Virus record (IMG/VR): IMGVR_UViG_2875683775_000003
DNA from: a virus
Taxonomy: Duplodnaviria > Heunggongvirae > Uroviricota > Caudoviricetes
Length of the DNA stretch: 16,662 nucleotides
Strand: one strand, 5' to 3'
The translations under genes were made by a program, and so were the position numbers. Positions within the stretch are counted from its first letter, which is position 1, and each line of letters starts with the position of its first letter. Positions 1 to 13,876 of the stretch are shown here, piece after piece. Under the pieces are notes generated by a model. It made no database searches. It was not told the DNA's origin and worked only from the letters and a program-made list of their open reading frames with translations.

Positions 1-234
1 ATGAAATCAAAAGACACCCTAAAGTGGTTCCCTGCGCAGCTTCCTGAAGTAAGAATTATCCTAGGGGATGCTGTAGTGGAAGTAGCAAAACAGGGAAGAC
101 CTATCAATACCAGAACATTGCTTGATTACATTGAAGGAAACATAAAGAAAAAATCATGGCTGGATAACAAAGAATTATTACAAACAGCGATATCAGTTCT
201 TAAAGACAACCAAAATTTAAATGGTAAAATGTAA
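1..234 (+). CDS. ynaE: Small prophage protein of the YnaE/YdfK type (cold-shock-associated, function unknown)
   Basis: 77-aa ORF with ATG at window position 1, located next to the pinR-like gene as in my recollection of K-12 Rac. The sequence fits my memory of YnaE/YdfK but was not checked. The true N-terminus could lie beyond the window edge. Confidence 0.55.
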   Translation: MKSKDTLKWFPAQLPEVRIILGDAVVEVAKQGRPINTRTLLDYIEGNIKKKSWLDNKELLQTAISVLKDNQNLNGKM

Positions 235-550
235 TATAATAAACTTACTTTTTTATCATTTTTCCACTTTAACAACATTTTGCTCCACTTTTCCACGACC
301 AAACAACTTGAAATCTGGTTAAAATAACACGCAACACTATTCTTCTTCCTTGAGTCCGCCTGGAACTCGAAAAACAAACCGAGTTAAAGCCATTTTTCAC
401 AAAATCGATTTTGGGTCTCACCAAAATTACGGGGTTGCATACGCATTCGTTTATTTTCGAACGTGTACATACAAATATGCACAAAAATAATCAAAATTAT
501 TTTCTGAGATGCATTATGATATGAACACCAATTTCGTATAGAGTCTCACT

Positions 551-1141
551 ATGTCTCAAATTTTTGCTTACTGTCGGATATCAACGCTGGATCAGACCAC
601 CGAAAATCAACGCCGGGAAATCGAAAGTGCAGGTTTTAAAATCAAACCTCAGCAAATAATCGAAGAACACATTAGTGGCTCAGCAGCAACCAGTGAGCGT
701 CCTGGTTTTAACCGGTTGCTTGCTCGCCTGAAATGTGGTGATCAATTGATTGTGACAAAATTGGATCGCCTTGGTTGTAATGCAATGGATATCAGGAAAA
801 CAGTGGAACAACTGACCGAAACAGGTATCAGAGTGCATTGCTTAGCATTGGGGGGCATTGACCTGACCAGTCCAACAGGAAAAATGATGATGCAAGTAAT
901 TTCAGCAGTCGCTGAATTTGAACGAGACCTTTTACTTGAACGCACTCATTCCGGGATAGTAAGAGCCCGCGGCGCAGGGAAACGTTTTGGTCGACCACCT
1001 GTGTTAAATGAAGAACAGAAACAGGTGGTATTCGAACGAATTAAGTCAGGTGTAAGTATAAGTGCCATTGCCCGGGAATTCAAAACCTCGCGGCAAACCA
1101 TTTTAAGAGCCAAAGCAAAACTTCAGACACCTGACATATAA
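551..1141 (+). CDS. pinR: Serine recombinase of the resolvase/invertase family, PinR-like
   Basis: 196-aa ORF. N-terminal catalytic motif YCRISTLDQ (catalytic Ser near residue 11) and C-terminal helix-turn-helix ([17 protein letters not shown]). Length matches PinR/PinQ of E. coli cryptic prophages. Confidence 0.85.
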
Positions 1142-1238
1142 AAAATAATCTCGGTGTGAGATGCTTTACGTCTTCCAAGCCCCCTTCCTTGCCGTAAATG
1201 GAAAGATACATCTAATTATAGAATTTATATGTTTTACC

Positions 1239-1349
1239 CTACGGCAGTGCTGGCCATTCAATATCCTGTGCAGTTGACGTATCAACACGGTTCAGCAATA
1301 CCCGATACTTTTTCCATGCTTCCAGCAACGAGGTTTCTTCCTCCGTTGC
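1239..1349 (-). pseudogene. 3' remnant of a tail fibre assembly (Tfa) gene
   Basis: The last ~36 codons of the track ORF 1239..1424 read [36 protein letters not shown], which matches the conserved C-terminus of lambdoid Tfa proteins. The upstream part of that frame is unrelated, and no start codon or intact N-terminal body is present. Confidence 0.5.
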
Positions 1350-1368
1350 ATATACAGCCCACCTTTTT

Positions 1369-1662
1369 TCACCCACGATTAACCAACAGCCAGACCAGCA
1401 GACACGCCACCACCGGCACAGCAAAATCCATCAGGCTTGCCACATCCCACGCGCGCGGATCAAAACCGCCCCACCACGGCATATTCATTCGCTTGCCATG
1501 CCCGAACATTTCAATCCAGCGATATTCTGCCTGGGTATGTTCACGCGCAATGAAGAACGTACAACCGGCTATCGCTCCGTAAGCCCAGTTTCCGGTAAAA
1601 AGACCAACCAGTATCTGCGCAGCCACAGCACAAAGTGCATGAAGTAAGGGGCTTATATCCAT
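1369..1662 (-). CDS. Small hydrophobic protein with 2-3 predicted membrane spans, unknown function
   Basis: 97-aa ORF with a strong RBS (AAAGGAGG, 7 nt before the ATG), 12 nt downstream of the preceding gene's stop. Hydrophobic segments [30 protein letters not shown] and [15 protein letters not shown]. No family recognised. Confidence 0.6.
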
Positions 1663-1674
1663 TATTTCCTCCTT

Positions 1675-1953
1675 TCAGCTCCATTCCCGAAGCGGTGTTT
1701 CCAGCTCCACGACATAATCAGAGAATACAGAAACATCAAACAAGTCATCAAGAATGCGAATGTTGACAAAATAACCGTTATTCCGGATACAGACAGGTTC
1801 TCCCTCTTCAGTTACCCCTGTTTCTGTGTAGGTGAAACCAATTTCATCGACTAACAGTTTATTCTGGAGGTCTTCATCTTCCTCCCAGTCAAGAGATGAC
1901 AGGAAGGATTTAAACTCTCTGTTACCAGGAAATTTCAAAGTTAAATCTTTCAT
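1675..1953 (-). CDS. Small acidic protein translationally coupled to the tail fibre gene; possible fibre chaperone or accessory protein
   Basis: 92-aa ORF whose ATG overlaps the tail fibre stop (ATGA overlap at 1950-1953). Strong RBS AAGGAGG 5 nt upstream. Very acidic composition (DWEEDEDLQ...). No family recognised. Confidence 0.6.
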   Translation of the reverse strand: MKDLTLKFPGNREFKSFLSSLDWEEDEDLQNKLLVDEIGFTYTETGVTEEGEPVCIRNNGYFVNIRILDDLFDVSVFSDYVVELETPLREWS

Positions 1954-4175
1954 ACTGCCTCCTTGATTTGCCTGTCATTTAATTCTTTAAACCAGACTCT
2001 GAAATTTCTGATGTGTCCAAACAAATGACGCGTTCCTGCTGCGGTCTGCCCACCAAACCGGTACGATGTTGCTGTAACTCCAAATATTTTACCATTAAGG
2101 TTTGTTGTATAATTACCATTGCATATTGCATTTACTGATAAATCAGATTTAGCTCTCACACCCACAATGAACCTTTCTCCATCTGAGGAAATTTGTGGCT
2201 GAACCATTCCTACGTTGGCGCTTATCTTTCCTGTTGAAACAAACCCCAGCGATAAATAATTATCATCAATACTGTGCCCTCCAACATCAAATATCCTTGG
2301 CGCAACATTGGGCGGTGTACTCCAGTTCCTCCTTACTTCGCACAATACTGTAAAAGGCCGTGTTGACAGGTTATTCGCCGAGGGGATAGTAACCACATCA
2401 CTTGCGCGTGTTGTTGGCATTGTAGTTACAATAAATGACGATGCCGTATTGCCCAGTTCAATTTGCGGCGTCGTCATGGTTAATGTTGAGTCATCATAGA
2501 ATGGCTCATTACTTATTTTATTTGTCATATAAAAAGCACAGTTAACGGTATCAATGTCCGTATTAGCTGTATAAGTGGCCTCATAGTAGGTCCACTCGCC
2601 CTGTTGTTCAGCTTTGGCTGTTATAAGGGATGTATTACCGCTTACTGTTGCGATCCGGGTATCCAGATCAAGATAAGAGTCAGCAGAGAATGTATCTGTT
2701 CCACCAATAATAACTGAAACTCTTAACCTGCATCGTGCTTTAGCGCCTTTAACCCGGCACGAAAAAGTGAAACATTCACCACTTGCCAGCGGGAATCTGT
2801 CTGCTGCAACCACACCATGCACAGTATAGCCACCTGTTGTTCCCACTATACTTTCCGTGGGTGTCACCGTGGCATAATTGAACCCCTGTTTATCAGTGCC
2901 AAATGTTTTATTCAGTGCGGAATGAACAGTCCATGAGTCTGGTTTATTTGAGTTCCTCAGATAATTTGTCCTCTGTCCTTCAATCAATAAGCCATCGCGC
3001 TCAAATCGCGGTTCGTCAACTTCAGCAAGCTTGAGTTGGCCGGACTTATTAATATACGTTGCTGTTGAAGCACGTTTAAACTTAACAATCTTGTCGCCTG
3101 GCATTGTTATTTCATCGTCACCAATAACAATCTTTTTATAAGATGGCGAAAAACCCGTAATCATATCCAGCGAATCGTTAAACGGTATCCACACATCAGG
3201 CAGCGGCGGCACTATATTCGCACAGGGCTCTGCAGTCACTTCCGCTGCGGATTCTGCGCGGTCTGCCGCCTTTTCAGCTCGTGTCGCTGCCGACAGAGCC
3301 TCATCCTTTTTCTGCCCGGCCTTTGTTGCGTCTGCTGCGGCCTCCCGCGCTTTTGTGGTGGCGACTCCGGCATTTTCAGCGGCTGACTCTGCATTACGGC
3401 GGGAAGCCTCTTCACTGTCTGCGGAGGCTTCTTCTGACGCACGGGCATTTGTCTCTGAACGTTCTGCCGCTGTTGCTGCGTTTTGTGCGGCTGTTTTTGA
3501 AGAAGCTGCCGCTTTCGCGCTGTTACCTGCATTCGTCTCTGATGTTTTCGCCGCGTTCCTGGACGATGCCGCTGCTGTTTCTGATTTCTTTGCTGCCGCT
3601 GCGCTCTGAGAGGCGGCTTCAGCGTTGCGTGCTGCTTCTTCCACCATTGCCTCAAAACGACGCAATGCCTCCGGCATGACATCATCTTCCGTCATGGCAC
3701 CGAGAAAATCATTCAGCGTACCAGGTCTGGAACCTTCATAGACGGTAATGGTTCCGGCATGTGAAGGCGGAAAACCTTCAACCAGCAGGGTGACGCTGTA
3801 CTGGCCATACTCGACATCCATGCTGTAACGCCCGGCTTCATCCGGATTTTCAGAGGCTACCGTGTTCACCAGTACCGTGGTGCTGTTACGCTTTGCCTTC
3901 AGTTGAATAGTGCAGTTCTGTATTGGTTTTCCCGCACCATCTTTCAGCACACCTGAGATTTTTACTGCTGCCATATTCGGAGCTGACGGCCCCGGTACGA
4001 TATCTTCGGTTTTCGCCTCAGGCGCAACTGGCGCGGTTACCGTCTGATCTTTTGCTGCGGCGTCAGCTTTTGCGTTTTTTGCTACCGCAGGGATAAAACC
4101 TACCTGCTCACGGGATACAATATCCAGGGCGGTATAAATAGTCGGGATCAACCCGGTCAGGGTATTTCCAGCCAT
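1950..4175 (-). CDS. Side tail fibre protein: lambdoid Stf-like N-terminus with a divergent C-terminal receptor-binding region
   Basis: 741 aa from ATG at 4175 (RBS AAGGAA 9 nt upstream); the track ORF start at 4268 is upstream read-through. The N-terminal ~330 aa is Stf-like (MAGNTLTGLIPTIYTALD... followed by an Ala/Ser/Glu-rich coiled-coil repeat). The C-terminal ~400 aa (from ...PLPDVWIPFNDSLD... to ...HIRNFRVWFKELNDRQIKEAV) is unlike the K-12 StfR tip I recall. Confidence 0.85.
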   Translation of the reverse strand: MAGNTLTGLIPTIYTALDIVSREQVGFIPAVAKNAKADAAAKDQTVTAPVAPEAKTEDIVPGPSAPNMAAVKISGVLKDGAGKPIQNCTIQLKAKRNSTTVLVNTVASENPDEAGRYSMDVEYGQYSVTLLVEGFPPSHAGTITVYEGSRPGTLNDFLGAMTEDDVMPEALRRFEAMVEEAARNAEAASQSAAAAKKSETAAASSRNAAKTSETNAGNSAKAAASSKTAAQNAATAAERSETNARASEEASADSEEASRRNAESAAENAGVATTKAREAAADATKAGQKKDEALSAATRAEKAADRAESAAEVTAEPCANIVPPLPDVWIPFNDSLDMITGFSPSYKKIVIGDDEITMPGDKIVKFKRASTATYINKSGQLKLAEVDEPRFERDGLLIEGQRTNYLRNSNKPDSWTVHSALNKTFGTDKQGFNYATVTPTESIVGTTGGYTVHGVVAADRFPLASGECFTFSCRVKGAKARCRLRVSVIIGGTDTFSADSYLDLDTRIATVSGNTSLITAKAEQQGEWTYYEATYTANTDIDTVNCAFYMTNKISNEPFYDDSTLTMTTPQIELGNTASSFIVTTMPTTRASDVVTIPSANNLSTRPFTVLCEVRRNWSTPPNVAPRIFDVGGHSIDDNYLSLGFVSTGKISANVGMVQPQISSDGERFIVGVRAKSDLSVNAICNGNYTTNLNGKIFGVTATSYRFGGQTAAGTRHLFGHIRNFRVWFKELNDRQIKEAV

Positions 4176-4273
4176 AATTAAATATTCCTTAAAAATTTGC
4201 GTAATTGTGAATAGATGGAGTAATGAGCTATCCAGCCCTGACACCAGCTCCCATCCGGAAGCTGACAAATGTG

Positions 4274-5038
4274 TTAATCAACAATTGTGATACCGTCTTT
4301 CAATGCGTTTTGCTTACCTGCAACATCCAGTGCATCAAAAGCAGAGCGTTTCATCGTTTTCTGACCAATATCATGCTGTGTCGGACGGGAGCCGCCGCCA
4401 TTGTTGCCACTGGCTTTCAGGATGTAGTCTTTCTGAGGGTAATTTTCGACGAGGAACTCCAGCGCCTCATCAAACTGCGCCAGTTCGCCAGGCTTCGCGC
4501 GGGAATAAATTTTGTTGCCGGAAGCGTCATAAGCAACGATCTTCCCTTCTTCCACTTTGAATGCCTGCCCGAAGCGGGCTTGTAATAAATCTGCCGGGAT
4601 CGCAATTTTATCGGCAATATATTTTGAACCCGCAAAACTACCGCCAATCATAGAATCGTAAAGCTGCGTCTCCAGCATCTGAGAGCGTTGCTTTTCTTCA
4701 TCTAATTGCTGCTGAAAATTTTTCGTAATTTCTGCCTTAACCTGGTCAACCTGTCCCGCATCGATCAGCTTTTTCTGGTCGATTTTTGACAGCATTTCCA
4801 GTGCCTCGATCGCCTTCTTCGGGTCTTCGATAGCGGCAAACTTAGCCAGTTTTTCCTCTGCAGCTTCTTTAGCCAGGCGATGATTTTTTGCCTCGCCATT
4901 AAGCTCTGTAATTTTTTTTATCGCCAGCGGTGCATCGAAGCCGATTTCTTTACCATCGTCGTGCACATAAACTGGCAGGCCAGCAGTATCAATTTCTGCG
5001 TATTGTTTTCCGTTAATCTCGACCGTTTTCAGTTTCAT
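4274..5038 (-). CDS. Phage protein of unknown function, coiled-coil rich with a Gly-rich C-terminal segment
   Basis: 254 aa from ATG at 5038 (MKLKTVEINGKQYAEID...). The track ORF start at 5110 is a GTG that overlaps a terminator hairpin and is unlikely to be used. Lys/Glu/Ala-rich heptad-like middle region. Occupies the position where K-12 Rac carries the ydaY pseudogene (recollection). Confidence 0.6.
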   Translation of the reverse strand: MKLKTVEINGKQYAEIDTAGLPVYVHDDGKEIGFDAPLAIKKITELNGEAKNHRLAKEAAEEKLAKFAAIEDPKKAIEALEMLSKIDQKKLIDAGQVDQVKAEITKNFQQQLDEEKQRSQMLETQLYDSMIGGSFAGSKYIADKIAIPADLLQARFGQAFKVEEGKIVAYDASGNKIYSRAKPGELAQFDEALEFLVENYPQKDYILKASGNNGGGSRPTQHDIGQKTMKRSAFDALDVAGKQNALKDGITIVD

Positions 5039-5095
5039 ATTAGTACCTGGTTTAAGTCTTCCGACAGTTACGCTGCTCACCATCCGGATCGCAGC

Positions 5096-5122
5096 AATAA
5101 AAAAGGCCACCCGAAGGTAGCC
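5096..5122 (-). terminator. Candidate intrinsic terminator downstream of the ParB-like gene
   Basis: On the minus-strand RNA: GGCUACC-UUCG-GGUGGCC (7-bp stem with one G-U pair, UUCG tetraloop) followed immediately by UUUUUUAUU. Confidence 0.55.
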
Positions 5123-5142
5123 TGTTGTAATAAATGATTTAT

Positions 5143-5574
5143 TTAAATCCCTGCTTTTCTGAATACCTGTGCATCACGCTCACGGAGTTGCTTCAGCGTC
5201 AGCCATTCGCCTTTATCGGTGTAAAATTCATCTGGCGACATACCGCCATCCCGAATCAGCTTTGCCCGGGTTTCCCCCACAATCTGTTTTTGTCTGGTGT
5301 AAGGCTGACGCAAAAACCATTCCCTGTAGGTTGTATCTCCGGCCAGAACAATGACCGGAACAGAATCCATTTTGAGCATTTCAGCCGCCATAACACGACC
5401 GTGACCCGCAATAATTTCGCCCTTTTCGTCAATCAGCACCGGATTAGTCCAGCCGAATTGCTTAATACTTTCTACCAGTTGTGCCACCTGCTCAGTACTG
5501 TGCGTCCTGGCGTTGTGCGCATACGGTGACAATTCTTGTAATGGGCGATAGACTATCTTTAATTTCTCGCTCAT
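5143..5574 (-). CDS. ParB-like nuclease domain protein
   Basis: 143-aa ORF with an AAGG RBS. The N-terminal 80 aa (VYRPLQELSPYAHNARTHSTEQVAQLVESIKQFGWTNPVLIDEKGEIIAGHGRVMAA) has the hallmarks of the ParB/Srx N-terminal nuclease-like fold. Position corresponds to ynaK of K-12 Rac (recollection, unverified). Confidence 0.7.
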   Translation of the reverse strand: MSEKLKIVYRPLQELSPYAHNARTHSTEQVAQLVESIKQFGWTNPVLIDEKGEIIAGHGRVMAAEMLKMDSVPVIVLAGDTTYREWFLRQPYTRQKQIVGETRAKLIRDGGMSPDEFYTDKGEWLTLKQLRERDAQVFRKAGI

Positions 5575-5590
5575 ACAGCCTTGCTTTATG

Positions 5591-5625
5591 AATAAAACGC
5601 ACCCCAGCAGCCAGTGCTACTGGGG
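5591..5625 (-). terminator. Candidate terminator downstream of trkG
   Basis: 6-bp GC stem (CCCCAG/CUGGGG, 12-nt loop) followed on the minus-strand RNA by UGCGUUUUAUU. The stem is weak, so this is tentative. Confidence 0.35.
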
Positions 5626-5711
5626 GCGGAGGTGTTGCTGGTAAAGTTAGGTATTGGATCAATGAGTGAGTCAATATAATATTAAACTCACAATTATAAA
5701 TCAGCCATATA

Positions 5712-7170
5712 TTAGGAGCGCCAAAAAAAACCTGAAAACAATATAATAACAGGATAAATTTCAAGGCGACCAAGAATCATAGCTATGCACATTAAATATT
5801 TTGCAATGTCATTAAGCACTCCGAATGACGATGCAGTAGCCCCAAAACCTAATCCCATATTATTAATACATGCAGCCACTGTTGCAAATGATGTAAGAAA
5901 ATCATATCCCATACCATTTAACACCAGTATAAAAAACACCGTGAAGAGAGTATAAAGAAAAAAGAAACTCCATACAGACCTCATTACACGATCTGTAACT
6001 ATCTTCCCTCCTACATTTACACTCAACAACGCTCTGGGATGAGAAAGCTGATTTATCTCGTGTTTGCTTTGTTTGAAAAGTATAAGAAATCGAAGTGACT
6101 TAATTCCACCACAAGTTGAACCTATACATCCCCCAAAGAAACTTGACGACAGCAAAAACACTATCGTGTGCGTGGGCCAGCTTGCATAATCCTGCGTAGC
6201 TAAACCATTATCAGTGAGCATGGAGCTGGCAAGAAAAAACGAATGAATAAAACTTCCATGCAAGTCATACATACCTATATGCCAGACCTGGAAAGAGGTA
6301 ACAATGATCACCCCTAAGGCTATTAACAGAAAGAAACGAAGTTCAATATCTCTGATTAAAGGTTTTATCGTTTTCCTGCTAATAACAATATACCAAAGAG
6401 TGAAGTTGAAAGCCGATAGCAGGGAAAAAGAACCAGCCACCAGCTCAACCAAATAGTTATTAAAATATCCGATACTCTCGCTATGAGTTGAGAAACCACC
6501 AAGCGAAACTGTGGAAATCCCGTGACAAATAGCATCAAACAAAGGCATTCCTGCAAGTCTATAACAGACAATACAAGCAATACCTAATAAAGAATAAGTT
6601 ATCCACAGTGTCCGTGACGTATCGGCCAGGCGGGGAGTGAGTTTGTCATCCTTAAATGGCCCCGGCATTTCTGACTGATAAAGCTTTGCACCACCAATAC
6701 CCAATAATGGCAATACAGCAACCGCCAGAACAATAACTCCTAAACCACCTATAAAATTTAACTGTGACCGATAGTACAAATATGCCCGAGGTAATGAACT
6801 AACATCATCAATTACAGTTGCTCCTGTTGTTGTTATTCCAGAAACCCCTTCAAACAGAGCATCAATGAACGTTAAATTAAGTTCTGAGTCAATCCATAAA
6901 GGGAATGCACTAATAACAGAAAACAAAATCCAAAACATTACAATTATAATAAACCCATCACGGGTACGTAATTGAATGCCAGATTTCTTAGTTGTATACC
7001 ACGCTCCGCCACCAATGCAAAAAAAATATAACGAAAGTTATAAAGAAAACGAATAGGCTTTTTTCTTTATAAAACAATGCTACAACCATTGGTGGCAACA
7101 TTGAAAGACTATAGAGCCAAACCAGGAACCCACACATATGAGTAACAACTCTTACATGAGATGTATTCAT
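5712..7170 (-). pseudogene. trkG: TrkG/TrkH-family potassium uptake protein gene, disrupted by a +1 frameshift
   Basis: An N-terminal 50-codon fragment (MNTSHVRVVTHMCGF...FVIFF, within track ORF 6988..7188) and a C-terminal 408-aa ORF (5712..6938) lie in different frames. The frame of the large ORF is open upstream to 7037 and reads ...FFCIGGGAWYTTKKSGIQLRTRDGFIIIV. The two frames meet at an A8 run at 7019-7026; removing one A gives a single 485-aa product, the length I recall for K-12 TrkG. Low GC, consistent with a moron. Confidence 0.85.
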
Positions 7171-7307
7171 ATCTAAATATTCTTTCAATTATAACCACCT
7201 TGCTGCAATATTATGATTATACTGTATAAAATTTAACTCCTCTTAGATCTTACTTCACTGTTCCTTATGAAACAATCATCAAAATGAATCATATTGTAGT
7301 TAAGATT

Positions 7308-7772
7308 TTACTTTAAACACTGTTCGGTTATGTATTGCTGAGCACCTTCAAGTTGGGCCTGCATCATTACCAGTCGTTCCCGGAGGGTGAAATAATCCCG
7401 TTCAGCGGTGTCTGCCAGTCGGGGGGAGGCTGCATTATCCACGCCGGAGGCGGTGGTGGCTTCACGCACTGACTGACAGACTGCTTTGATGTGCAACCGA
7501 CGACGACCAGCGGCAACATCATCACGCAGAGCATCATTTTCAGCTTTCGCATCAGCTAACTCCTTCGTGTATTTTGCATCGAGCGCAGCAACATCACGCT
7601 GACGCATCTGCATGTCAGTAATTGCCGCGTTCGCCAGCTTCAGTTCTCTGGCATTTTTGTCGCGCTGCTCTTTGTAGGCGGTGGCGTTATCACGGTAATG
7701 ATTAACAGCCCATGACAGGCAGACGATGATGCAGATAACCAGAGCATAAATAATCGCGGCGACTCTGCTCAC
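7308..7772 (-). CDS. rzpR: Rz-type i-spanin (inner-membrane spanin subunit)
   Basis: Track ORF 7308..7787. The product closely resembles lambda Rz (N-terminal membrane anchor [24 protein letters not shown], coiled-coil body). The likely start is a GTG overlapping the endolysin stop, which gives 154 aa; the start is uncertain. The symbol is by analogy with K-12 Rac. Confidence 0.7.
7367..7552 (-). CDS. rzoR: Rz1-type o-spanin lipoprotein, embedded out of frame within Rz
   Basis: 61-aa ORF with lipobox LVVVGC and a proline-rich segment ([16 protein letters not shown]), fully nested in the +1 frame of the Rz gene. This is the classic Rz/Rz1 arrangement. Confidence 0.75.
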
Positions 7773-8302
7773 TGATCTATCCCCCAACAGGCTAATGCGC
7801 TTTCCTGGTCACGACGAATAACCTGTCCATAGCAGTTATTTGAACGTATGCGGCAATCGCGCCCACCATCTTTTATCCACCAGCGAATCGCCTCGCATGC
7901 ACCCTTACGATCACCGGCATTCAGCCGCTTATAAAACGTCGACGGGAAACACTTACCGGGGCCAATGTTATAGGGACAAAATGACGCTATACCCGCTTTC
8001 TGTGGTTCGGTCAGTGGTACTTTAATATTGCGCTCCACCCATGCCAGCGCCTTATCACGTTCAATAGCGTTAACCTGGTCGCATTTTTCCTTCGACAGCC
8101 TCATTCCCGGTATGACGGGCTTACCATCCACCATTGTGGCACCACGACAGATGGTCCATATACCGGAACCATCGCGGTATGCCGTTGTGTGGTTACCTTC
8201 TTTTTCATCCAGAAACTGGTCGAGAATATCAGGCGCAGGCGCACCGACGGCAATCAGTGCCAGAACGGCAGCCGACAGGCCGTATCTGATTTTTGCGTTC
8301 AT
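7769..8302 (-). CDS. SAR endolysin, T4-lysozyme-like (GH24), P21 R-type
   Basis: 177 aa. N-terminal weakly hydrophobic signal-anchor-release segment ([15 protein letters not shown]) followed by a lysozyme catalytic region ([20 protein letters not shown]). Overall resemblance to phage 21 R and DLP12/Qin endolysins. No obvious SD sequence. Confidence 0.8.
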
Positions 8303-8407
8303 GGATATTTATCAGGATTTATCGGTTTCTGAACCCTGGATATGTTTATCTGTCCCGGCCTGTTGAATCAGGCAAGGAATAGTTAAATACAATAGAGAGG
8401 ATTGTTT

Positions 8408-8680
8408 ATGGACAATAGCACCATTTCTCTACAGGAGTTGCTCGACTGCATTTCCAAGCTTCGGGATGATGTAAATGCCCTTACTGTCGCATTTTCATAT
8501 CTGGCATTCTCAATTCCCAAGGAACAAATGCAACCAACACTGGCATCGCTCCAGCTTGAATCACTCAACCCCAAATGGTCCCAGCAACAACAAAATTCTT
8601 TCAAGTGGCTGGCGGTATTACTGGAAGAAAAATATGCTGGTGAAATTACCATTTCGGCGGAGTCTTCAGTGAACCAGTAA
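8408..8680 (+). CDS. Hypothetical protein encoded antisense within the lysis cassette
   Basis: 90 aa from ATG at 8408 with RBS GAGAGG about 7 nt upstream; the track ORF begins at a TTG at 8402. Protein-like composition and no internal stops, while the minus strand of the same interval has only an implausible Cys/Ser-rich frame. Overlaps the 3' end of the 8646..8990 gene by 35 nt. No family recognised. Confidence 0.4.
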   Translation: MDNSTISLQELLDCISKLRDDVNALTVAFSYLAFSIPKEQMQPTLASLQLESLNPKWSQQQQNSFKWLAVLLEEKYAGEITISAESSVNQ

Positions 8681-8990
8681 TTCTTCCCGGCAGTTTTCCT
8701 TTGTAGGTTATCCACACACCCTGCGCCTCTAAAATTATGGGGCGCTTTTCCGGTGACTGCTCATCCCCTTCACATAACCCTGCAGCAACATCCAGGAAGA
8801 CCTGTCTGATGCTCCTTCTGGCTGCTGCCTCATAAAACTCCAGCGCGGCACCTTCAACACGGTCCAGCGAGATGTCCAGGTCTAAAATTTCACCGTCAAA
8901 GCGTTTTTTGTCCCGTAACGCTAAAGTTACCGTAACTTTATTCTCAAAATTGCGGATCCCTTTCACAATCAGTTCATAGTTTTGAGTCAT
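8646..8990 (-). CDS. Hypothetical lysis-cassette protein, positional equivalent of ydfR (DUF1327) of Qin
   Basis: 114-aa ORF with a strong RBS (GGGGAGAG), starting 4 nt after the pinholin stop. In Qin, as I recall, a DUF1327 gene (ydfR) sits between holin and endolysin. Homology is not verified, and the C-terminal ~25 aa may be an altered tail. Confidence 0.55.
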   Translation of the reverse strand: MTQNYELIVKGIRNFENKVTVTLALRDKKRFDGEILDLDISLDRVEGAALEFYEAAARRSIRQVFLDVAAGLCEGDEQSPEKRPIILEAQGVWITYKGKLPGRITGSLKTPPKW

Positions 8991-8994
8991 TGAA

Positions 8995-9183
8995 TTACTC
9001 TCCCCGTGCAGCCTTACGCTTATCTTCTTTAATCTTGAAATAAAGATTTGTCAGATACGTCAACAGGCCAAACACCAGACTACCCAGCACACCTATTGCT
9101 GCCCACTGTGAGGGCGTGACTCTATCGAGCAACTGTAAAAACCAGTAGCCAGCACTGCCTGCGGAGGTGCCATAGGCGACACC
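8995..9183 (-). pseudogene. 5'-truncated S21-type pinholin gene
   Basis: The minus-strand frame encodes [62 protein letters not shown]-stop, which resembles the phage 21 pinholin from about residue 8 onward. Upstream in frame there is no ATG/GTG/TTG before a stop; the sequence runs into the ydaG RBS and start on the other strand. Confidence 0.65.
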
Positions 9184-9205
9184 CGGCGTTAAGGGGAGAG
9201 ATAAG

Positions 9206-9340
9206 ATGGTGCATTACGAAGTAGTTCAGTATTTGATGGATTGTTGCGGTATCACTTACAGCCCGGCTGTGCAGGCTTTACGTAGCAACGACTGGGATCT
9301 CTGGCAAGCAGAAGCCTCTATCCGCAACAACAAGATGTGA
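9206..9340 (+). CDS. ydaG: Small Rac early-region protein (44 aa)
   Basis: ATG at 9206 with RBS AAGGGGAGAG; 44 aa ([18 protein letters not shown]...). Below the ORF-track length cutoff. Symbol assigned from length and position as I recall K-12 Rac. Confidence 0.6.
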
Positions 9341-9350
9341 GGTGCGAAAA

Positions 9351-9506
9351 ATGCAAAAAATCGACCTCGGCAACAACGAATCCCTGGTGTGCGGCGTGTT
9401 CCCCAACCAGGATGGAACGTTCACTGCCATGACGTATACCAAAAGCAAAACATTTAAAACCGAAACTGGTGCGCGCCGATGGTTGGAGAAGCACACAGTA
9501 AGCTAA
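9351..9506 (+). CDS. ydaF: Small Rac early-region protein (51 aa)
   Basis: ATG at 9351 with RBS GAGGTG; 51 aa (MQKIDLGNNESLVCGVFPNQDG...). The 3' end overlaps the sieB 3' end (convergent). Symbol assigned from memory. Confidence 0.6.
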   Translation: MQKIDLGNNESLVCGVFPNQDGTFTAMTYTKSKTFKTETGARRWLEKHTVS

Positions 9507-9991
9507 CGATTAAAACGTCTACTCCTGCTGTTCCAGAATAACTTCATAAAATGGGAGTATTTTTCGGTGACGAGATAATAAGAACAGTTTGCGCTATCAC
9601 TCTGATGTTGAATGATGCCCTTCCGTTCTAATTTTTTCATAACCGGGTTACGGCAAGGAGAAGTGATAATAAGATTTCCTGTTTTAAGGAAATCTTTAAA
9701 TACAGCGATTTCTTTCTCAGATAAACGAAGCAATACTCGTTGCTCTGGTAGTAATGAATAATGCTTTTGAATATGCGCTCGCAATCTTGAGAAGGAAATG
9801 GCGACCACGAAAGAAAAGGCAAAAACGATAATCTGAAAGAGCCAAGGTATTTCAGTATAAGCATTGAATGCGACAGTAAACTCTTTCGGTATCAGCCAGA
9901 GAGTGAGACCAAAAATGATAATCGTATACATAAGTCTTTCGAGTGGCTCGTTAGCAAAAAGTTTCAACAATGGAGTAAATACATCCAACAT
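9503..9991 (-). CDS. sieB: Superinfection exclusion protein B
   Basis: 162 aa from ATG at 9991 (MLDVFTPLLKLFANEPLERLMYTIIIFGLTLWLIPKEF...). Membrane protein matching Rac SieB in length and sequence as I recall. The track ORF extends to 10114 as upstream read-through. Confidence 0.85.
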   Translation of the reverse strand: MLDVFTPLLKLFANEPLERLMYTIIIFGLTLWLIPKEFTVAFNAYTEIPWLFQIIVFAFSFVVAISFSRLRAHIQKHYSLLPEQRVLLRLSEKEIAVFKDFLKTGNLIITSPCRNPVMKKLERKGIIQHQSDSANCSYYLVTEKYSHFMKLFWNSRSRRFNR

Positions 9992-10432
9992 ATCAATAAC
10001 TCTCAACTGTAAGGGTATTGAAATGTTAACACAAGCTCTCGCTGTAGGGGTATAGCCGAGACCACCGAAGCCCGGAGGTGGTGAAATAAAACCGGGCACA
10101 ACACGAAGGCGCATTTCCGATATCCATAAAGAGTCGGTCTTGTCTGTTAAATTTAAATGGTGGGAGTGCGCCTCCGGTTGTAAATAACGACATTGCTGTG
10201 TGTAGTCCTGGCGGCATCAGTTTTTTTCTTGAAGTTCGGCTGATGTCCGCCCTTTTTAAAGTGAATTTTGTGATGCGGTGAATGCGGCTAAGCGCACGTG
10301 GCACAGTTAAAAGTCATGTTAGTCCTTATTGGTTTGGGTGGGAAAGCCGACTGTAATTGTTAACTGGTTGCAGTCACCTGGAGGCACCAGGCACCGCATC
10401 AACAAAGTTCATTTGTAAAAATGGAGATAATT

Positions 10433-10654
10433 ATGATTGCACATCACTTCGGAACTGATGAAATACCACGTCAGTGTGTGACTCCTGGCGATTATGTTCT
10501 TCATGAAGGCCGGACATATATTGCCTCGGCAAACAATATTAAAAAGCGAAAACTATATATTCGTAACCTGACCACAAAAACATGCATTACTGACCGCATG
10601 ATTAAAGTCTTCCTCGGTCGTGATGGTTTACCTGTAAAGGCGGAGTCATGGTGA
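10433..10654 (+). CDS. kilR: KilR, a cell-division (FtsZ) inhibitor of Rac
   Basis: 73 aa from ATG at 10433 ([35 protein letters not shown]...), RBS GGAG 6 nt upstream. Confidence 0.85.
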
Positions 10655-10824
10655 TGACTAAGAAAATAAAATGTGCTTACCACCTTTGCAAAAAAGACGT
10701 TGAAGAAAGCAAAGCTATTGAAAGAATGCTTCACTTCATGCACGGGATTTTATCAAAAGACGAACCGAGAAAATATTGCAGTGAAGCTTGTGCCGAAAAA
10801 GACCAGATGGCACATGAACTTTAA
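10654..10824 (+). CDS. ydaE: Small Cys/His-rich protein YdaE (putative metal-binding)
   Basis: 56 aa ([56 protein letters not shown]). The ATG overlaps the kilR stop (TGATGA). Below the ORF-track cutoff. Confidence 0.7.
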   Translation: MTKKIKCAYHLCKKDVEESKAIERMLHFMHGILSKDEPRKYCSEACAEKDQMAHEL

Positions 10825-10898
10825 TTAATTGACTATTCGAAACTGAATTTATGCCAGAAATGGCAGGTATTCGCTCAACCTTAATTAAGGAGAAAAAC

Positions 10899-11174
10899 AT
10901 GATTACCAATTATGAAGCCACTGTTGTAACTACCGATGACATTGTTCACGAGGTGAATCTGGAAGGAAAGCGCATTGGCTACGTAATTAAAACAGAAAAT
11001 AAAGAAACCCCATTCACTGTGGTTGATATCGATGGTCCATCAGGCAACGTAAAAACACTTGATGAAGGTGTCAAAAAAATGTGCCTGGTGCATATCGGAA
11101 AGAATCTGCCCGCAGAAAAAAAAGCCGAATTTCTGGCAACTCTAATTGCAATGAAATTAAAAGGTGAAATCTGA
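10899..11174 (+). CDS. racC: RacC protein
   Basis: 91 aa from ATG at 10899 (MITNYEATVVTTDDIVHEVN...), RBS AAGGAG 6 nt upstream. Confidence 0.8.
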   Translation: MITNYEATVVTTDDIVHEVNLEGKRIGYVIKTENKETPFTVVDIDGPSGNVKTLDEGVKKMCLVHIGKNLPAEKKAEFLATLIAMKLKGEI

Positions 11175-11179
11175 AAGAA

Positions 11180-11204
11180 ATAGCCTGCGTATGGCGCAGG
11201 CTAT
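11180..11204 (+). other. GC-rich stem-loop in the racC-recE intergenic region
   Basis: 10-bp perfect stem (ATAGCCTGCG / CGCAGGCTAT) with a 5-nt loop, 6 nt after the racC stop. No U-tract follows, so it is not a canonical intrinsic terminator. Confidence 0.45.
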
Positions 11205-11275
11205 GAACAGTGTGTATCCGGCAAGATCATTCACTGAACAAAACGAATTTTAATCTGAGTTGAGGTTAAAAAACA

Positions 11276-13876
11276 ATGAGCACAAAACCACTCTTCCTGT
11301 TACGGAAAGCGAAAAAATCATCCGGTGAACCTGACGTCGTCCTGTGGGCAAGCAACGATTTTGAATCGACCTGTGCCACTCTGGACTACCTGATCGTTAA
11401 GTCAGGTAAAAAACTGAGCAGCTATTTTAAAGCTGTTGCCACGAATTTTCCTGTCGTTAATGACCTGCCCGCTGAAGGTGAGATCGATTTTACCTGGAGT
11501 GAACGCTATCAACTCAGCAAAGACTCCATGACATGGGAACTAAAACCGGGAGCAGCACCAGACAACGCTCACTATCAAGGCAATACCAACGTCAACGGCG
11601 AAGACATGACTGAGATTGAGGAGAATATGCTACTCCCAATTTCTGGCCAGGAACTGCCCATTCGTTGGCTTGCTCAACACGGCAGCGAAAAACCGGTAAC
11701 GCACGTTTCACGCGACGGACTCCAGGCATTACACATTGCTCGGGCTGAAGAACTACCGGCTGTTACTGCCCTGGCTGTTTCCCACAAAACCAGCCTGCTC
11801 GACCCGCTGGAAATTCGCGAACTCCACAAACTGGTTCGTGACACTGACAAAGTTTTCCCTAATCCTGGTAATTCAAACCTGGGACTGATAACTGCTTTTT
11901 TCGAAGCATACCTGAACGCTGACTACACCGATCGAGGACTGCTGACAAAAGAGTGGATGAAGGGTAATCGTGTTTCACACATCACTCGCACGGCTTCCGG
12001 TGCTAATGCTGGCGGCGGAAACCTCACCGATCGCGGCGAAGGTTTCGTACACGATCTGACGTCACTGGCGCGCGACGTAGCCACTGGCGTACTGGCCCGT
12101 TCAATGGATCTGGACATCTATAACCTTCATCCGGCACACGCTAAACGCATTGAGGAAATTATCGCTGAAAATAAACCGCCCTTTTCTGTTTTCCGCGACA
12201 AATTCATCACCATGCCTGGCGGGCTGGATTATTCCCGCGCCATCGTGGTTGCGTCCGTAAAAGAAGCACCAATTGGGATCGAGGTCATCCCCGCGCACGT
12301 CACTGAATATCTGAACAAAGTACTGACTGAAACCGATCATGCCAACCCTGATCCGGAAATCGTGGATATTGCCTGCGGTCGCTCCTCTGCCCCGATGCCG
12401 CAGCGAGTAACAGAAGAAGGAAAACAGGATGATGAAGAAAAACCGCAACCATCTGGAACAACGGCAGTTGAACAGGGAGAGGCTGAAACAATGGAACCGG
12501 ACGCAACTGAACATCATCAGGACACGCAGCCGCTGGATGCTCAGTCACAGGTAAATTCTGTTGATGCGAAATATCAGGAACTGCGGGCAGAACTCCATGA
12601 AGCCCGGAAAAACATTCCATCAAAAAATCCTGTCGATGCCGATAAATTGCTTGCTGCATCACGTGGTGAATTTGTTGACGGAATTAGCGACCCGAACGAT
12701 CCGAAATGGGTAAAGGGGATCCAGACTCGCGATTGTGTGTACCAGAACCAGCCAGAAACGGAAAAAACCAGCCCAGATATGAATCAACCTGAGCCAGTAG
12801 TGCAACAGGAACCGGAAATAGCCTGCAATGCCTGCGGCCAGACTGGCGGGGATAACTGCCCTGACTGTGGTGCGGTGATGGGCGACGCAACATACCAGGA
12901 AACATTCGATGAAGAGAGTCAGGTTGAAGCTAAGGAAAATGATCCGGAGGAAATGGAAGGCGCTGAACATCCGCACAATGAGAATGCTGGCAGCGATCCG
13001 CATCGCGATTGCAGTGATGAAACTGGCGAAGTCGCAGATCCCGTAATCGTAGAAGACATAGAGCCAGGTATTTATTACGGAATTTCGAATGAGAATTACC
13101 ACGCGGGTCCCGGTATCAGTAAGTCTCAGCTCGATGACATTGCTGATACTCCGGCACTATATTTGTGGCGTAAAAATGCCCCCGTGGACACCACAAAGAC
13201 AAAAACGCTCGATTTAGGAACTGCTTTCCACTGCCGGGTACTTGAACCGGAAGAATTCAGTAACCGCTTTATCGTAGCACCTGAATTTAACCGCCGTACA
13301 AACGCCGGAAAAGAAGAAGAGAAAGCGTTTCTGATGGAATGCGCAAGCACAGGAAAAACGGTTATCACTGCGGAAGAAGGCCGGAAAATTGAACTCATGT
13401 ATCAAAGCGTTATGGCTTTGCCGCTGGGGCAATGGCTTGTTGAAAGCGCCGGACACGCTGAATCATCAATTTACTGGGAAGATCCTGAAACAGGAATTTT
13501 GTGTCGGTGCCGTCCGGACAAAATTATCCCTGAATTTCACTGGATCATGGACGTGAAAACTACGGCGGATATTCAACGATTCAAAACCGCTTATTACGAC
13601 TACCGCTATCACGTTCAGGATGCATTCTACAGTGACGGTTATGAAGCACAGTTTGGAGTGCAGCCAACTTTCGTTTTTCTGGTTGCCAGCACAACTATTG
13701 AATGCGGACGTTATCCGGTTGAAATTTTCATGATGGGCGAAGAAGCAAAACTGGCAGGTCAACAGGAATATCACCGCAATCTGCGAACCCTGTCTGACTG
13801 CCTGAATACCGATGAATGGCCAGCTATTAAGACATTATCACTACCCCGCTGGGCTAAGGAATATGCAAATGACTAA
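11276..13876 (+). CDS. recE: Exodeoxyribonuclease VIII (RecE), full length
   Basis: 866-aa ORF with RBS TGAGG. Central acidic low-complexity region and C-terminal nuclease domain. Length and sequence match RecE of Rac. Confidence 0.95.

What the first reader, a model, noticed from the sequence alone, without database searches (positions are those of the whole stretch)
1239..4175. Tail-fibre tip module swapped, leaving a Tfa 3' scar next to the recombinase
The fibre keeps the conserved lambdoid N-terminal ~330 aa and Ala-rich coiled coil, but its C-terminal ~400 aa is a different receptor-binding region. The canonical Tfa chaperone gene is gone except for ~36 C-terminal codons at 1239-1349. 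Two unrelated small genes occupy the space in between. This looks like a host-range cassette exchange by recombination inside stf and at the 3' end of tfa, next to a serine recombinase, where invertible tail-fibre segments (Mu G, P1 C, e14 P) normally sit. I could not identify crossover sites by eye.
Basis: partly seen in the sequence, partly recalled or inferred. Interest (0 to 1): 0.6.

Follow-up and report, generated by a model that had tools for sequence, protein, structure and literature searches.

The report
Phage-21-type side tail fibre cassette
This is the decayed Rac prophage of E. coli B, carrying a common alternative side-tail-fibre gene set that also occurs in phage 21 and always brings along a short dead stub of the usual fibre-chaperone gene, so the finding is real but ordinary.

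Summary
The window is E. coli B REL606 (100% identity), at the right end of the cryptic Rac prophage. The sequence observations hold: a fibre gene with a lambda-type N-terminus and an unrelated C-terminal tip, two small genes, a 36-codon tfa 3' stub at 1239-1349 and pinR. RefSeq already annotates the stub as a partial tail fibre assembly gene.

- The whole stf-orf92-orf97-stub block (1293-3978) is 97% identical to viable lambdoid phages such as Lambda_2E9, and it is also present in classical phage 21.
- The orf97/stub junction is base-for-base the same in all of them. It occurs in 1,738 of 5,426 complete E. coli genomes, so the swap is ancient and inherited, not a local event.
- There is no invertible segment. 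No pix/gix-type site occurs anywhere in the window, all genes point the same way, and viable phages carry the same layout beside pinR.
- The tip resembles the RcGTA head-spike fibre plus a LamG-like lectin domain.
- The functions of orf92 and orf97 remain unknown.

Interest is low.

The parts
551..1141 (+). pinR, a serine recombinase. It is a neighbouring passenger gene of the phage b region and not part of the fibre cassette.
   Evidence: Pfam Resolvase E=2.5e-36 plus HTH_7. 38% identical to PinE. 99.3% DNA identity to K-12 Rac across 1-1350. Found beside both cassette types in viable phages.
1239..1349 (-). tfa 3' stub: 36 codons plus the stop codon, a pseudogene remnant.
   Evidence: Caudo_TAP positions 95-130/131, E=3e-16. 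99.1% identical to the K-12 tfaR 3' end. PGAP calls it a partial pseudogene. In the phages an in-frame TGA lies directly upstream; REL606 has TGG there.
1350..1368 (-). Junction spacer between the orf97 stop and the first tfa-derived base. The homology break with K-12 tfaR is at 1350/1351.
   Evidence: blastn end point. The junction is identical in REL606, Lambda_2E9, phage 21 and PhiR49_2 (alignment A1). The junction is found in 1,738 of 5,426 E. coli genomes.
1369..1662 (-). orf97: a small three-helix, probably membrane, protein of unknown function, probably a moron.
   Evidence: phrog_1443, E=2.4e-58. 577 clusters at 90% identity and 443 at 50% identity, all stand-alone proteins of about 95-105 aa. 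AF2 pLDDT 92.7 with helices 4-23, 26-52 and 74-96. Also found after a P22-like tailspike, after gpJ in a Comamonas prophage, and in a non-phage context in Aeromonas.
1675..1953 (-). orf92: a small acidic alpha/beta protein, translationally coupled to stf through an ATGA overlap. Function unknown.
1950..3974 (-). stf: 674-aa side tail fibre of the phage-21 type.
   Evidence: phrog_1419, E=1.8e-297. 98% protein identity to Lambda_2E9, 62% to phage 21 and 54% to PhiR49_2. PGAP places the start at 3974.
3606..3974 (-). Stf N-terminal tail-attachment domain (aa 1-123).
   Evidence: Pfam phage_tail_N, E=9e-67. 88% identical to StfR aa 2-122. Matches PDB 9e7m 'Tail fiber protein', E=5.7e-49.
3234..3605 (-). 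Ala/Ser/Thr-rich shaft (aa 124-247). Its length varies among relatives.
   Evidence: Alignment A2 shows about 106 extra residues in the Qin/Tritos versions. Only composition-level matches to StfR.
2361..3080 (-). Tip domain 1 (Stf aa ~299-538): RcGTA head-spike-fibre-like beta-sandwich. It contains the hypervariable core (about 2061-2962).
   Evidence: NCBIfam GTA_spike_fiber, 66.8 bits against a cut-off of 36. The family profile A3 hits PDB 6tb9 Rcc01080, E=2.5e-11. The mosaic map shows 2061-2962 is not conserved with phage 21.
1962..2402 (-). Tip domain 2 (Stf aa ~525-671): ConA/LamG-like lectin domain.
   Evidence: Pfam Laminin_G_3 is matched by 5 of 5 family members (best E=2.3e-5), but below the gathering score: 23 against 27.6 bits.
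3975..4175 (-). 5' fragment (67 codons) of a coat / major head gene, fused in frame to stf by a deletion that removed the rest of the head and all tail genes.
   Evidence: phrog_283 major head protein, E=6e-17. 3974-5345 is 99% identical to the head module of vB_EcoS-666R9. The joint at GAATA is shown in alignment A6.

Best explanation
Window 1239-3974 is the distal end of the late operon of the defective Rac prophage of E. coli B. It carries the widespread 'phage-21-type' side-tail-fibre cassette.

The cassette consists of:
- stf, with a lambda-type tail-attachment domain, an Ala-rich shaft, and a two-domain lectin-like tip (an RcGTA head-spike-fibre-like domain plus a LamG-like domain);
- orf92, translationally coupled to stf;
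- orf97, a three-helix protein that is probably in the membrane;
- an untranslated 111-nt 3' stub of tfa.

The stub is the footprint of one old replacement, in which a chaperone-dependent lambda-type tip and the first ~154 codons of tfa were exchanged for this set. That junction has since been inherited and spread with the cassette.

Inferred steps:
- The stub, like the conserved stf 5' end, serves as a homology arm for ordinary homologous recombination between lambdoid (pro)phages.
- The tip binds a surface polysaccharide and needs no Tfa.
- orf97 is a moron, not a fibre part.

PinR plays no part; it is a neighbouring b-region gene. In REL606 the cassette is a relic. A deletion at a 5-bp microhomology removed the rest of the coat gene and the genes that lay between it and stf, fusing 67 coat-protein codons to stf.
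For: - Identity of the locus: 100% match to REL606 with RefSeq annotation.
- Against K-12 Rac, only 1-1350 and 5344-7000 are near-identical (99.3% and 99.6%). The first ~130 stf codons are 82% identical.
- Window 1293-3978 is 97% identical to phage Lambda_2E9. Phage 21, PhiR49_2, Tritos and Qin prophages share the layout.
- The junction is identical in four independent carriers.
- The junction is present in 1,738 of 5,426 genomes, against 3,404 with intact tfa over the same point.
- Phages with intact tfa-pinR lose homology exactly at 1350.
- In the phages an in-frame TGA lies upstream of the stub.
- Tip homologies.
- ATGA coupling of stf and orf92.
- orf97 occurs with other fibre types and outside phages.
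- Homologous lambda x Rac crossovers have been mapped in stf and tfa (PMC3945230).
- Coat'-'stf deletion joint.
Against: - Whether the stub is maintained because it works as a homology arm, or is merely a neutral hitch-hiker, was not tested.
- About 16 of 53 phage records carry orf97 with a different 3' end. The three I checked have no stub, so the stub is dispensable.
- Polysaccharide binding and Tfa-independence are inferred from homology and gene content only. The LamG match is below Pfam's threshold.
- Side tail fibres are dispensable in lambda, so presence in viable phages does not prove that the fibre is assembled.
- I could not tell whether the B lineage inherited the cassette vertically or acquired it by a later exchange.
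Confidence: 0.85

Rival explanations
1. One reading: a host-range cassette exchange happened at this locus. It would be linked to the adjacent serine recombinase, with the locus being, or descending from, an invertible tail-fibre segment of the Mu G / P1 C / e14 P kind.
For: - A serine recombinase lies 97 bp from the stub.
- PinR/PinQ can invert the e14 P segment (PMC12529663).
- The older literature proposes that fibre-associated invertases drive fibre gene exchange (cited in PMC3945230).
Against: - No pix/gix/cix/hix-like site occurs in the 16.6-kb window. The best score is 14 of 20 specified positions, at shuffle level, while the e14 control scores 18-19 of 20. The published 16-mer is absent even with up to 3 mismatches.
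- Inverted repeats in 1-5200 are short and about as many as I estimate chance would give.
- All cassette genes have one orientation, and there is no second tip.
- The junction is shared with phages that have no pin gene.
- PinR is only 38% identical to PinE.
Confidence: 0.04
2. The tfa stub is kept because it has a function of its own. Candidates are a late-operon 3' end or terminator, a regulatory RNA, or a selected recombination handle. On this view it is not a neutral scar.
For: - The junction is conserved in 1,738 genomes and in phages whose neighbouring orf92 has diverged strongly.
- The stub is about as conserved as orf97 itself: 92.9% against 94.2% in PhiR49_2.
Against: - No terminator-like site was found on the minus strand across the scanned region 300-4400, which includes the stub.
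- The stub is cut to 57 nt in phage 21 and Lambda_2E9, and is absent in mEp460_4F5, PhiR11_1 and Gally.
- It is not translated in the phages.
- Its conservation can be explained by linkage and by gene conversion with the many intact tfa copies.
Confidence: 0.1
3. orf92 and orf97 together are the functional replacement for Tfa, that is, a new two-part fibre chaperone system.
For: - They sit exactly where tfa would be.
- They form a tight operon with stf.
- orf92 was found only with this fibre type.
Against: - orf97 occurs behind a P22-like tailspike, behind gpJ in Comamonas, and in a non-phage context in Aeromonas.
- In the Qin and Tritos versions an extra fibre gene separates orf93 from orf97.
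- Neither model resembles a known chaperone.
Confidence: 0.15

Closest known systems
Side tail fibre locus of Escherichia phage 21 (OL657228) and Lambda_2E9-like Jouyvirus phages
   Same: - The gene order is the same: stf, then a 92-aa gene, a 97-aa membrane protein, and the tfa stub with an identical junction.
- DNA identity is 97% to Lambda_2E9 over 1293-3978.
- Stf is 62% identical in protein to that of phage 21.
   Different: - In those phages the stub is cut to 57 nt and followed by sitABCD. Here it is full length (111 nt) and followed by pinR.
- The central tip region (about 2061-2962) differs from phage 21.
- Here the upstream tail genes are deleted.
K-12 Rac stfR-tfaR-pinR (and Qin tfaQ-pinQ), lambda stf-tfa
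   Same: - Same chromosomal site and flanks: ynaE-pinR and the last 111 nt of tfaR are 99.3% identical.
- Same N-terminal Stf domain: 88% protein identity over aa 3-123.
   Different: - K-12 has a 1,120-aa fibre with a Gly/His-rich tip and an intact 191-aa Tfa chaperone.
- Here the tip is lectin-like, Tfa is reduced to 36 codons, and two unrelated genes intervene.
Din-family invertible tail-fibre switches (Mu G/Gin, P1 C/Cin, e14 P/PinE)
   Same: - A serine recombinase gene lies next to the tail-fibre genes.
- PinR is reported to invert the e14 P segment in trans (PMC12529663).
   Different: - No crossover sites.
- No inverted second tip-plus-chaperone set.
- The fibre genes and the recombinase gene are convergent, with nothing invertible between them.
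Rhodobacter capsulatus GTA head spike fibre Rcc01080 (PDB 6tb9)
   Same: The tip family profile aligns to chain residues 45-280 (E=2.5e-11), and NCBIfam GTA_spike_fiber scores above its cut-off.
   Different: - Here the domain sits at the end of a lambda-type tail fibre, not on a capsid.
- It is followed by an extra LamG-like domain.

Membership tests
Lambda-type side tail fibre (Stf) | N-terminal tail-attachment domain (Pfam PF08400 phage_tail_N) | tested here: met
   E=9e-67, 223.6 bits against a cut-off of 26.6. Matches the PDB 9e7m fibre chain, E=5.7e-49.
Lambda-type side tail fibre (Stf) | Position in the late operon downstream of J/lom | tested here: not met
   J, lom and all other tail genes are deleted in this window; stf is fused to a coat gene fragment. 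The position is met in relatives: Lambda_2E9, phage 21, XJ55, Tritos.
Phage-21-type Stf cassette (phrog_1419 + phrog_1361 + phrog_1443) | Full-length match of the fibre and both downstream genes, in the same order | tested here: met
   phrog_1419 E=1.8e-297, phrog_1361 E=4e-39, phrog_1443 E=2.4e-58. Collinear with phage 21 and Lambda_2E9.
Phage-21-type Stf cassette | Shared orf97/tfa-stub junction | tested here: met
   Identical junction sequence in alignment A1. Found in 1,738 E. coli genomes.
Tfa tail fibre assembly chaperone (Pfam PF02413 Caudo_TAP) | Complete chaperone domain with its own start codon | tested here: not met
   Only profile positions 95-130 of 131 are present. Homology to tfaR starts at its codon ~155. 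PGAP marks it as a pseudogene.
Din-type invertible tail-fibre segment (Mu G, P1 C, e14 P) | Two inverted ~26-bp crossover sites (gix/cix/pix) flanking the segment | tested here: not met
   The best match in the window is 14 of 20 specified positions, at shuffle level, against 18-19 of 20 for the e14 control. The 16-mer from PMC12529663 is absent with up to 3 mismatches.
Din-type invertible tail-fibre segment | Two alternative, oppositely oriented tip-plus-chaperone gene sets | tested here: not met
   There is a single tip, and all cassette genes are on the minus strand.
Din-type invertible tail-fibre segment | Adjacent Hin/Gin/Cin/Pin-class invertase | tested here: inconclusive
   PinR has the Resolvase and HTH_7 domains but is only 38% identical to PinE. 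Inversion of the e14 P segment by PinQ/PinR is reported in PMC12529663.
Din-type invertible tail-fibre segment | Fis-dependent recombinational enhancer in the 5' part of the recombinase gene | not tested
   No scan was made, and no validated model was at hand.
GTA head spike fibre domain (NCBIfam NF048003) | Score above the curated cut-off, and similarity to the solved Rcc01080 chain | tested here: met
   66.8 bits against a cut-off of 36, over Stf aa 330-524. The profile hits 6tb9, E=2.5e-11.
ConA/LamG-like lectin domain (Pfam PF13385) | Score above the gathering threshold | tested here: inconclusive
   23.0 bits against 27.6 for the window protein. However, 5 of 5 family members match the same region, best E=2.3e-5.

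The most novel reading that the evidence does not exclude
The phage-21-type cassette would be a self-contained, chaperone-independent lectin fibre system with three parts:
- orf92 is a new dedicated assembly or adaptor factor.
- orf97 is a new membrane protein for receptor masking or superinfection exclusion. It has an invariant [11 protein letters not shown]...MPWWGGFD motif and forms 443 clusters at 50% identity.
- The tfa stub persists in a third of E. coli genomes because it is the selected right-hand homology arm. It would let prophages toggle between chaperone-dependent and chaperone-independent fibre types.
Probability: 0.2. Interest if true: 0.4.

Novelty: already known. Interest (0 to 1): 0.15.

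Why it matters
It matters little as a discovery. Mosaic exchange of tail-fibre tips at conserved stf and tfa sequences is textbook phage biology. The stub is already annotated in RefSeq, and the cassette sits in classical phage 21 and in about 32% of complete E. coli genomes.

Three points are of practical use:
- People who use REL606 or BL21 as phage hosts, or as recombination partners for lambda, should know that this Rac relic offers a different fibre cassette from K-12.
- orf92 and orf97 are very common fibre-linked genes of unknown function and would be cheap to test.
- PinR in strain B has no substrate in the window, and its only reported substrate (the e14 P segment) is missing from the icd site.

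Tried and rejected
- **Crossover sites.** I scanned for Din-type crossover sites with a 26-bp consensus and with the published 16-mer, using the e14 pix sites as a positive control. Nothing was found in the window or around pinR/pinQ in six related loci. The only hits were a lone 15-16/20 match inside gene J.
- **Repeats.** General inverted and direct repeats in 1-5200 gave only short matches, about as many as I estimate chance would give.
- **Signals around the stub.** The terminator and promoter scan gave nothing on the relevant strand.
- **orf92 and orf97 by sequence.** Pfam, NCBIfam, PADLOC and PDB sequence searches gave no informative hit.
- **orf97 domain fusions.** A profile search of 1.84 billion representatives found none.
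- **Stf tip structure.** The homologue search for the tip returned only hits of about 99-100% identity in the list of 120, which was useless as an alignment. I therefore did not predict the tip structure and used a profile of phage homologues against PDB and Pfam instead.
- **Frameshift idea.** I considered that the stub might be read by frameshifting from orf97. I rejected this because an in-frame TGA precedes it in the phages.
Full report
**Identity of the window.** Window 1-5700 is 100% identical to E. coli B REL606 (NC_012967.1 1420131-1425830) and to other B strains. Only 29 of 5,426 complete E. coli genomes hold the whole arrangement in one piece. The RefSeq annotation, converted to window coordinates, reads as follows:
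- ydfK/ynaE, 1-234 (+)
- pinR, 551-1141 (+)
- 'tail fiber assembly protein, incomplete, missing N-terminus', 1239-1349 (-)
- two hypothetical proteins, 1369-1662 and 1675-1953 (-)
- 'prophage tail fiber N-terminal domain-containing protein', 1950-3974 (-)
- a DUF6651 protein, then ynaK and trkG

This is the right end of the cryptic Rac prophage.

**Checking the observation.**
- The stub is real. It encodes [36 protein letters not shown] and matches Caudo_TAP positions 95-130 of 131 (E=3e-16). It is 99.1% identical to the last 111 nt of K-12 tfaR.
- The two small genes are real and have no Pfam or NCBIfam family.
- The fibre has the lambda N-terminal domain (E=9e-67). That domain matches a solved tail fibre chain, PDB 9e7m.
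- Similarity to K-12 StfR is 88% over aa 3-123. After that only low-complexity shaft matches remain, and then nothing.

Two corrections are needed.
Residues 1-67 are the N-terminus of a coat / major head protein (phrog_283). Window 3974-5345 is 99% identical to the scaffold and coat region of vB_EcoS-666R9 and related phages. The joint with the stf start codon lies at a GAATA microhomology. A deletion therefore removed the rest of the coat gene and whatever lay between it and stf. In intact relatives J and lom lie just upstream of stf.
- Compared with K-12 Rac the difference is not confined to the tip. Only 1-1350 (99.3%) and 5344-7000 (99.6%) are shared closely. The first ~130 stf codons are 82% identical.

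**What the block is.**
- Window 1293-3978 covers the whole stf gene from its start codon, orf92, orf97 and the first 57 nt of the stub. It is 97% identical to the viable lambdoid phage Lambda_2E9 and a dozen relatives.
- Classical phage 21 has the same order: J, stf (686 aa, 62% identical), a 92-aa gene, a 97-aa 'putative membrane protein', then sitABCD. PhiR49_2 has the same order too.
- In alignment A1 the junction between the orf97 stop and the first tfa-derived base is identical in REL606, Lambda_2E9, phage 21 and PhiR49_2. Only the downstream extent of the stub differs. It is cut after 57 nt where sitD follows, and full length in PhiR49_2 and REL606.
- In the phages a TGA lies in the stub's frame just upstream, so it is not translated. 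REL606 has TGG there, which creates the 61-aa ORF at 1239-1424.
- A 131-nt probe across the junction is covered at 80% or more in 1,738 of 5,426 complete E. coli genomes. The equivalent probe across intact tfaR is covered in 3,404.

The stub is an inherited part of a very common cassette.

**Relation to the recombinase.** The same full-length stub next to pinQ or pinR is found in two settings:
- Qin-site prophages in which J, lom and stf are present upstream (XJ55 and KN12-1), with the order J-lom-stf-orf93-extra fibre protein-orf97-stub-pinQ;
- viable phages Tritos, HannyBb and PhiR63_1.

Other viable phages (mEp460_ev081, Kati, 2H10 and others) carry stf-tfa-pinR, and their homology to the window ends exactly at 1350. 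So pinR is an ordinary b-region neighbour of both cassette types.

Several tests argue against an invertible segment.
- PinR is 38% identical to PinE.
- A 2025 paper reports that PinQ and PinR, which are 99% identical to each other, invert the e14 P segment in trans at its pix repeats (PMC12529663).
- I took the e14 pix sites as a positive control. They score 18-19 of 20 specified positions, while the best site anywhere in the window scores 14 of 20, which is shuffle level. The published 16-mer is absent with up to 3 mismatches.
- Inverted repeats in 1-5200 are short and about as many as I estimate chance would give.
- All cassette genes point the same way and there is only one tip.
- REL606 has icd directly followed by iraM, so e14 is absent from its K-12 site.

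Nothing supports an invertible segment or a recombinase-mediated exchange here.

**How exchange most likely works.** The mosaic map shows nested conserved and variable blocks:

| Compared with | Window region | DNA identity |
|---|---|---|
| Tritos / Qin-type prophages | 1 to ~1663-1675 | 98.3-98.7% |
| Lambda_2E9 | 1293-3978 | 97% |
| phage 21 | 1293-2061 | 93% |
| phage 21 | 2962-3978 | 88% |

- The central tip region, about 2061-2962, is unrelated at the DNA level between REL606 and phage 21.
- Conserved flanks around variable cores are what homologous recombination needs.
- De Paepe et al. mapped lambda x Rac crossovers experimentally in stf, and one third of the right-hand crossovers in the 95% homology in tfa (PMC3945230).
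- I therefore infer that the stub and the stf 5' end act as the outer homology arms. Whether the stub is maintained for that reason or is a neutral passenger is untested. About 16 of 53 phage records carry orf97 with a different 3' end. mEp460_4F5, PhiR11_1 and Gally, the three I checked, have no stub.

**The fibre tip.**
- NCBIfam GTA_spike_fiber matches Stf aa 330-524 above its cut-off.
- A profile of five diverse family tips hits the solved Rhodobacter GTA head spike fibre Rcc01080 (6tb9, E=2.5e-11).
- All five members match Laminin_G_3 over the last ~150 residues, though below Pfam's threshold.
- The tip is thus a two-domain beta-sandwich, lectin-like module. This suggests polysaccharide binding and, since these phages lack an intact tfa, independence from Tfa. 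Both points are inferences.

**The two small genes.**
- orf92 overlaps the stf stop codon (ATGA) and has a Shine-Dalgarno sequence inside stf. orf97 follows 12 nt after orf92, with its own Shine-Dalgarno sequence.
- orf92 (phrog_1361) is narrow in distribution: 45 clusters, and every hit that carries a species name is Escherichia or Shigella. It always sits directly after this fibre type.
- The orf92 model is confident (pLDDT 91), but its alpha/beta fold has no informative neighbour.
- orf97 (phrog_1443) is broad in distribution: 577 clusters at 90% identity and 443 at 50% identity, always a stand-alone protein of ~95-105 aa. It has an invariant [11 protein letters not shown]...MPWWGGFD core and three helices, pLDDT 92.7.
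- orf97 also occurs after a P22-like tailspike (Gally), after gpJ in a Comamonas prophage, and in a non-phage setting in Aeromonas.
- That pattern fits a moron, possibly for exclusion or envelope modification, better than a fibre chaperone. No function can be assigned. PADLOC has no match.

**Verdict.** The sequence features are real. The reading of a local, recombinase-associated tip swap is not supported. This is an already annotated, very common lambdoid fibre cassette sitting in a decayed prophage. Interest is low. The only open questions are what orf92 and orf97 do, and whether the stub is a selected recombination handle.

Noticed in passing
window 3972-4175 (joint at ~3974-3980): There is an in-frame fusion of 67 codons of a P22-type coat / major head gene to the stf start codon. 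It was made by a deletion at a GAATA microhomology, and the rest of the coat gene and whatever lay between it and stf are gone. Several sources therefore call a 741-aa 'tail fibre' here (for example P0209).
   Followed up: yes
window 5343/5344, inside ynaK (ORF 5143-5574): The left boundary of the region that differs between B and K-12 Rac falls inside ynaK. PGAP marks ynaK as a partial pseudogene (5332-5574), while a 143-aa ParB-like ORF is open in the window.
   Followed up: partly
window ~7300-11700 (L001 13307-17700): Rac of REL606 has a lysis cassette (essD, a YdfR-family gene, lysozyme, Rz-like lysis protein) directly beside trkG. The annotation lists no racR-ydaW immunity/replication genes between sieB/ydaF and essD. 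This is a different decay pattern from K-12 Rac.
   Followed up: no
window 1369-1662; L007 5001-5303; L008 5001-5309; L016 3456-3743: The orf97 family is a widespread stand-alone three-helix protein of ~97 aa (443 clusters at 50% identity). It has an invariant [11 protein letters not shown]...MPWWGGFD core and is found with unrelated fibres and tailspikes and outside prophages. Function unknown.
   Followed up: partly
L010 7532-8236; L011 7564-8604; L012 7306-8346: In the Qin-site prophages and in phage Tritos, an extra 'tail fiber domain-containing protein' (234-346 aa) is inserted between the orf92 homologue and orf97. This suggests a second, distal fibre component in those versions of the cassette.
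   Followed up: no
L018 30493-32169 (REL606 icd-iraM): REL606 has no e14 prophage at icd. The only reported substrate of PinR/PinQ, the e14 P segment, is therefore missing from its K-12 site, which leaves PinR without a known target in this strain.
   Followed up: partly
window 1239-1424: A single TGA-to-TGG difference from the phage copies opens a 61-aa ORF (TTG start) that runs from the 3' end of orf97 into the tfa stub. It is probably meaningless.
   Followed up: partly
L003 7954-7979, L012 12217-12242, L013 12367-12392 (gene J): A lone weak pix-like match (15-16 of 20 positions) recurs inside gene J of related phages. It has no inverted partner and is most likely chance.
   Followed up: no
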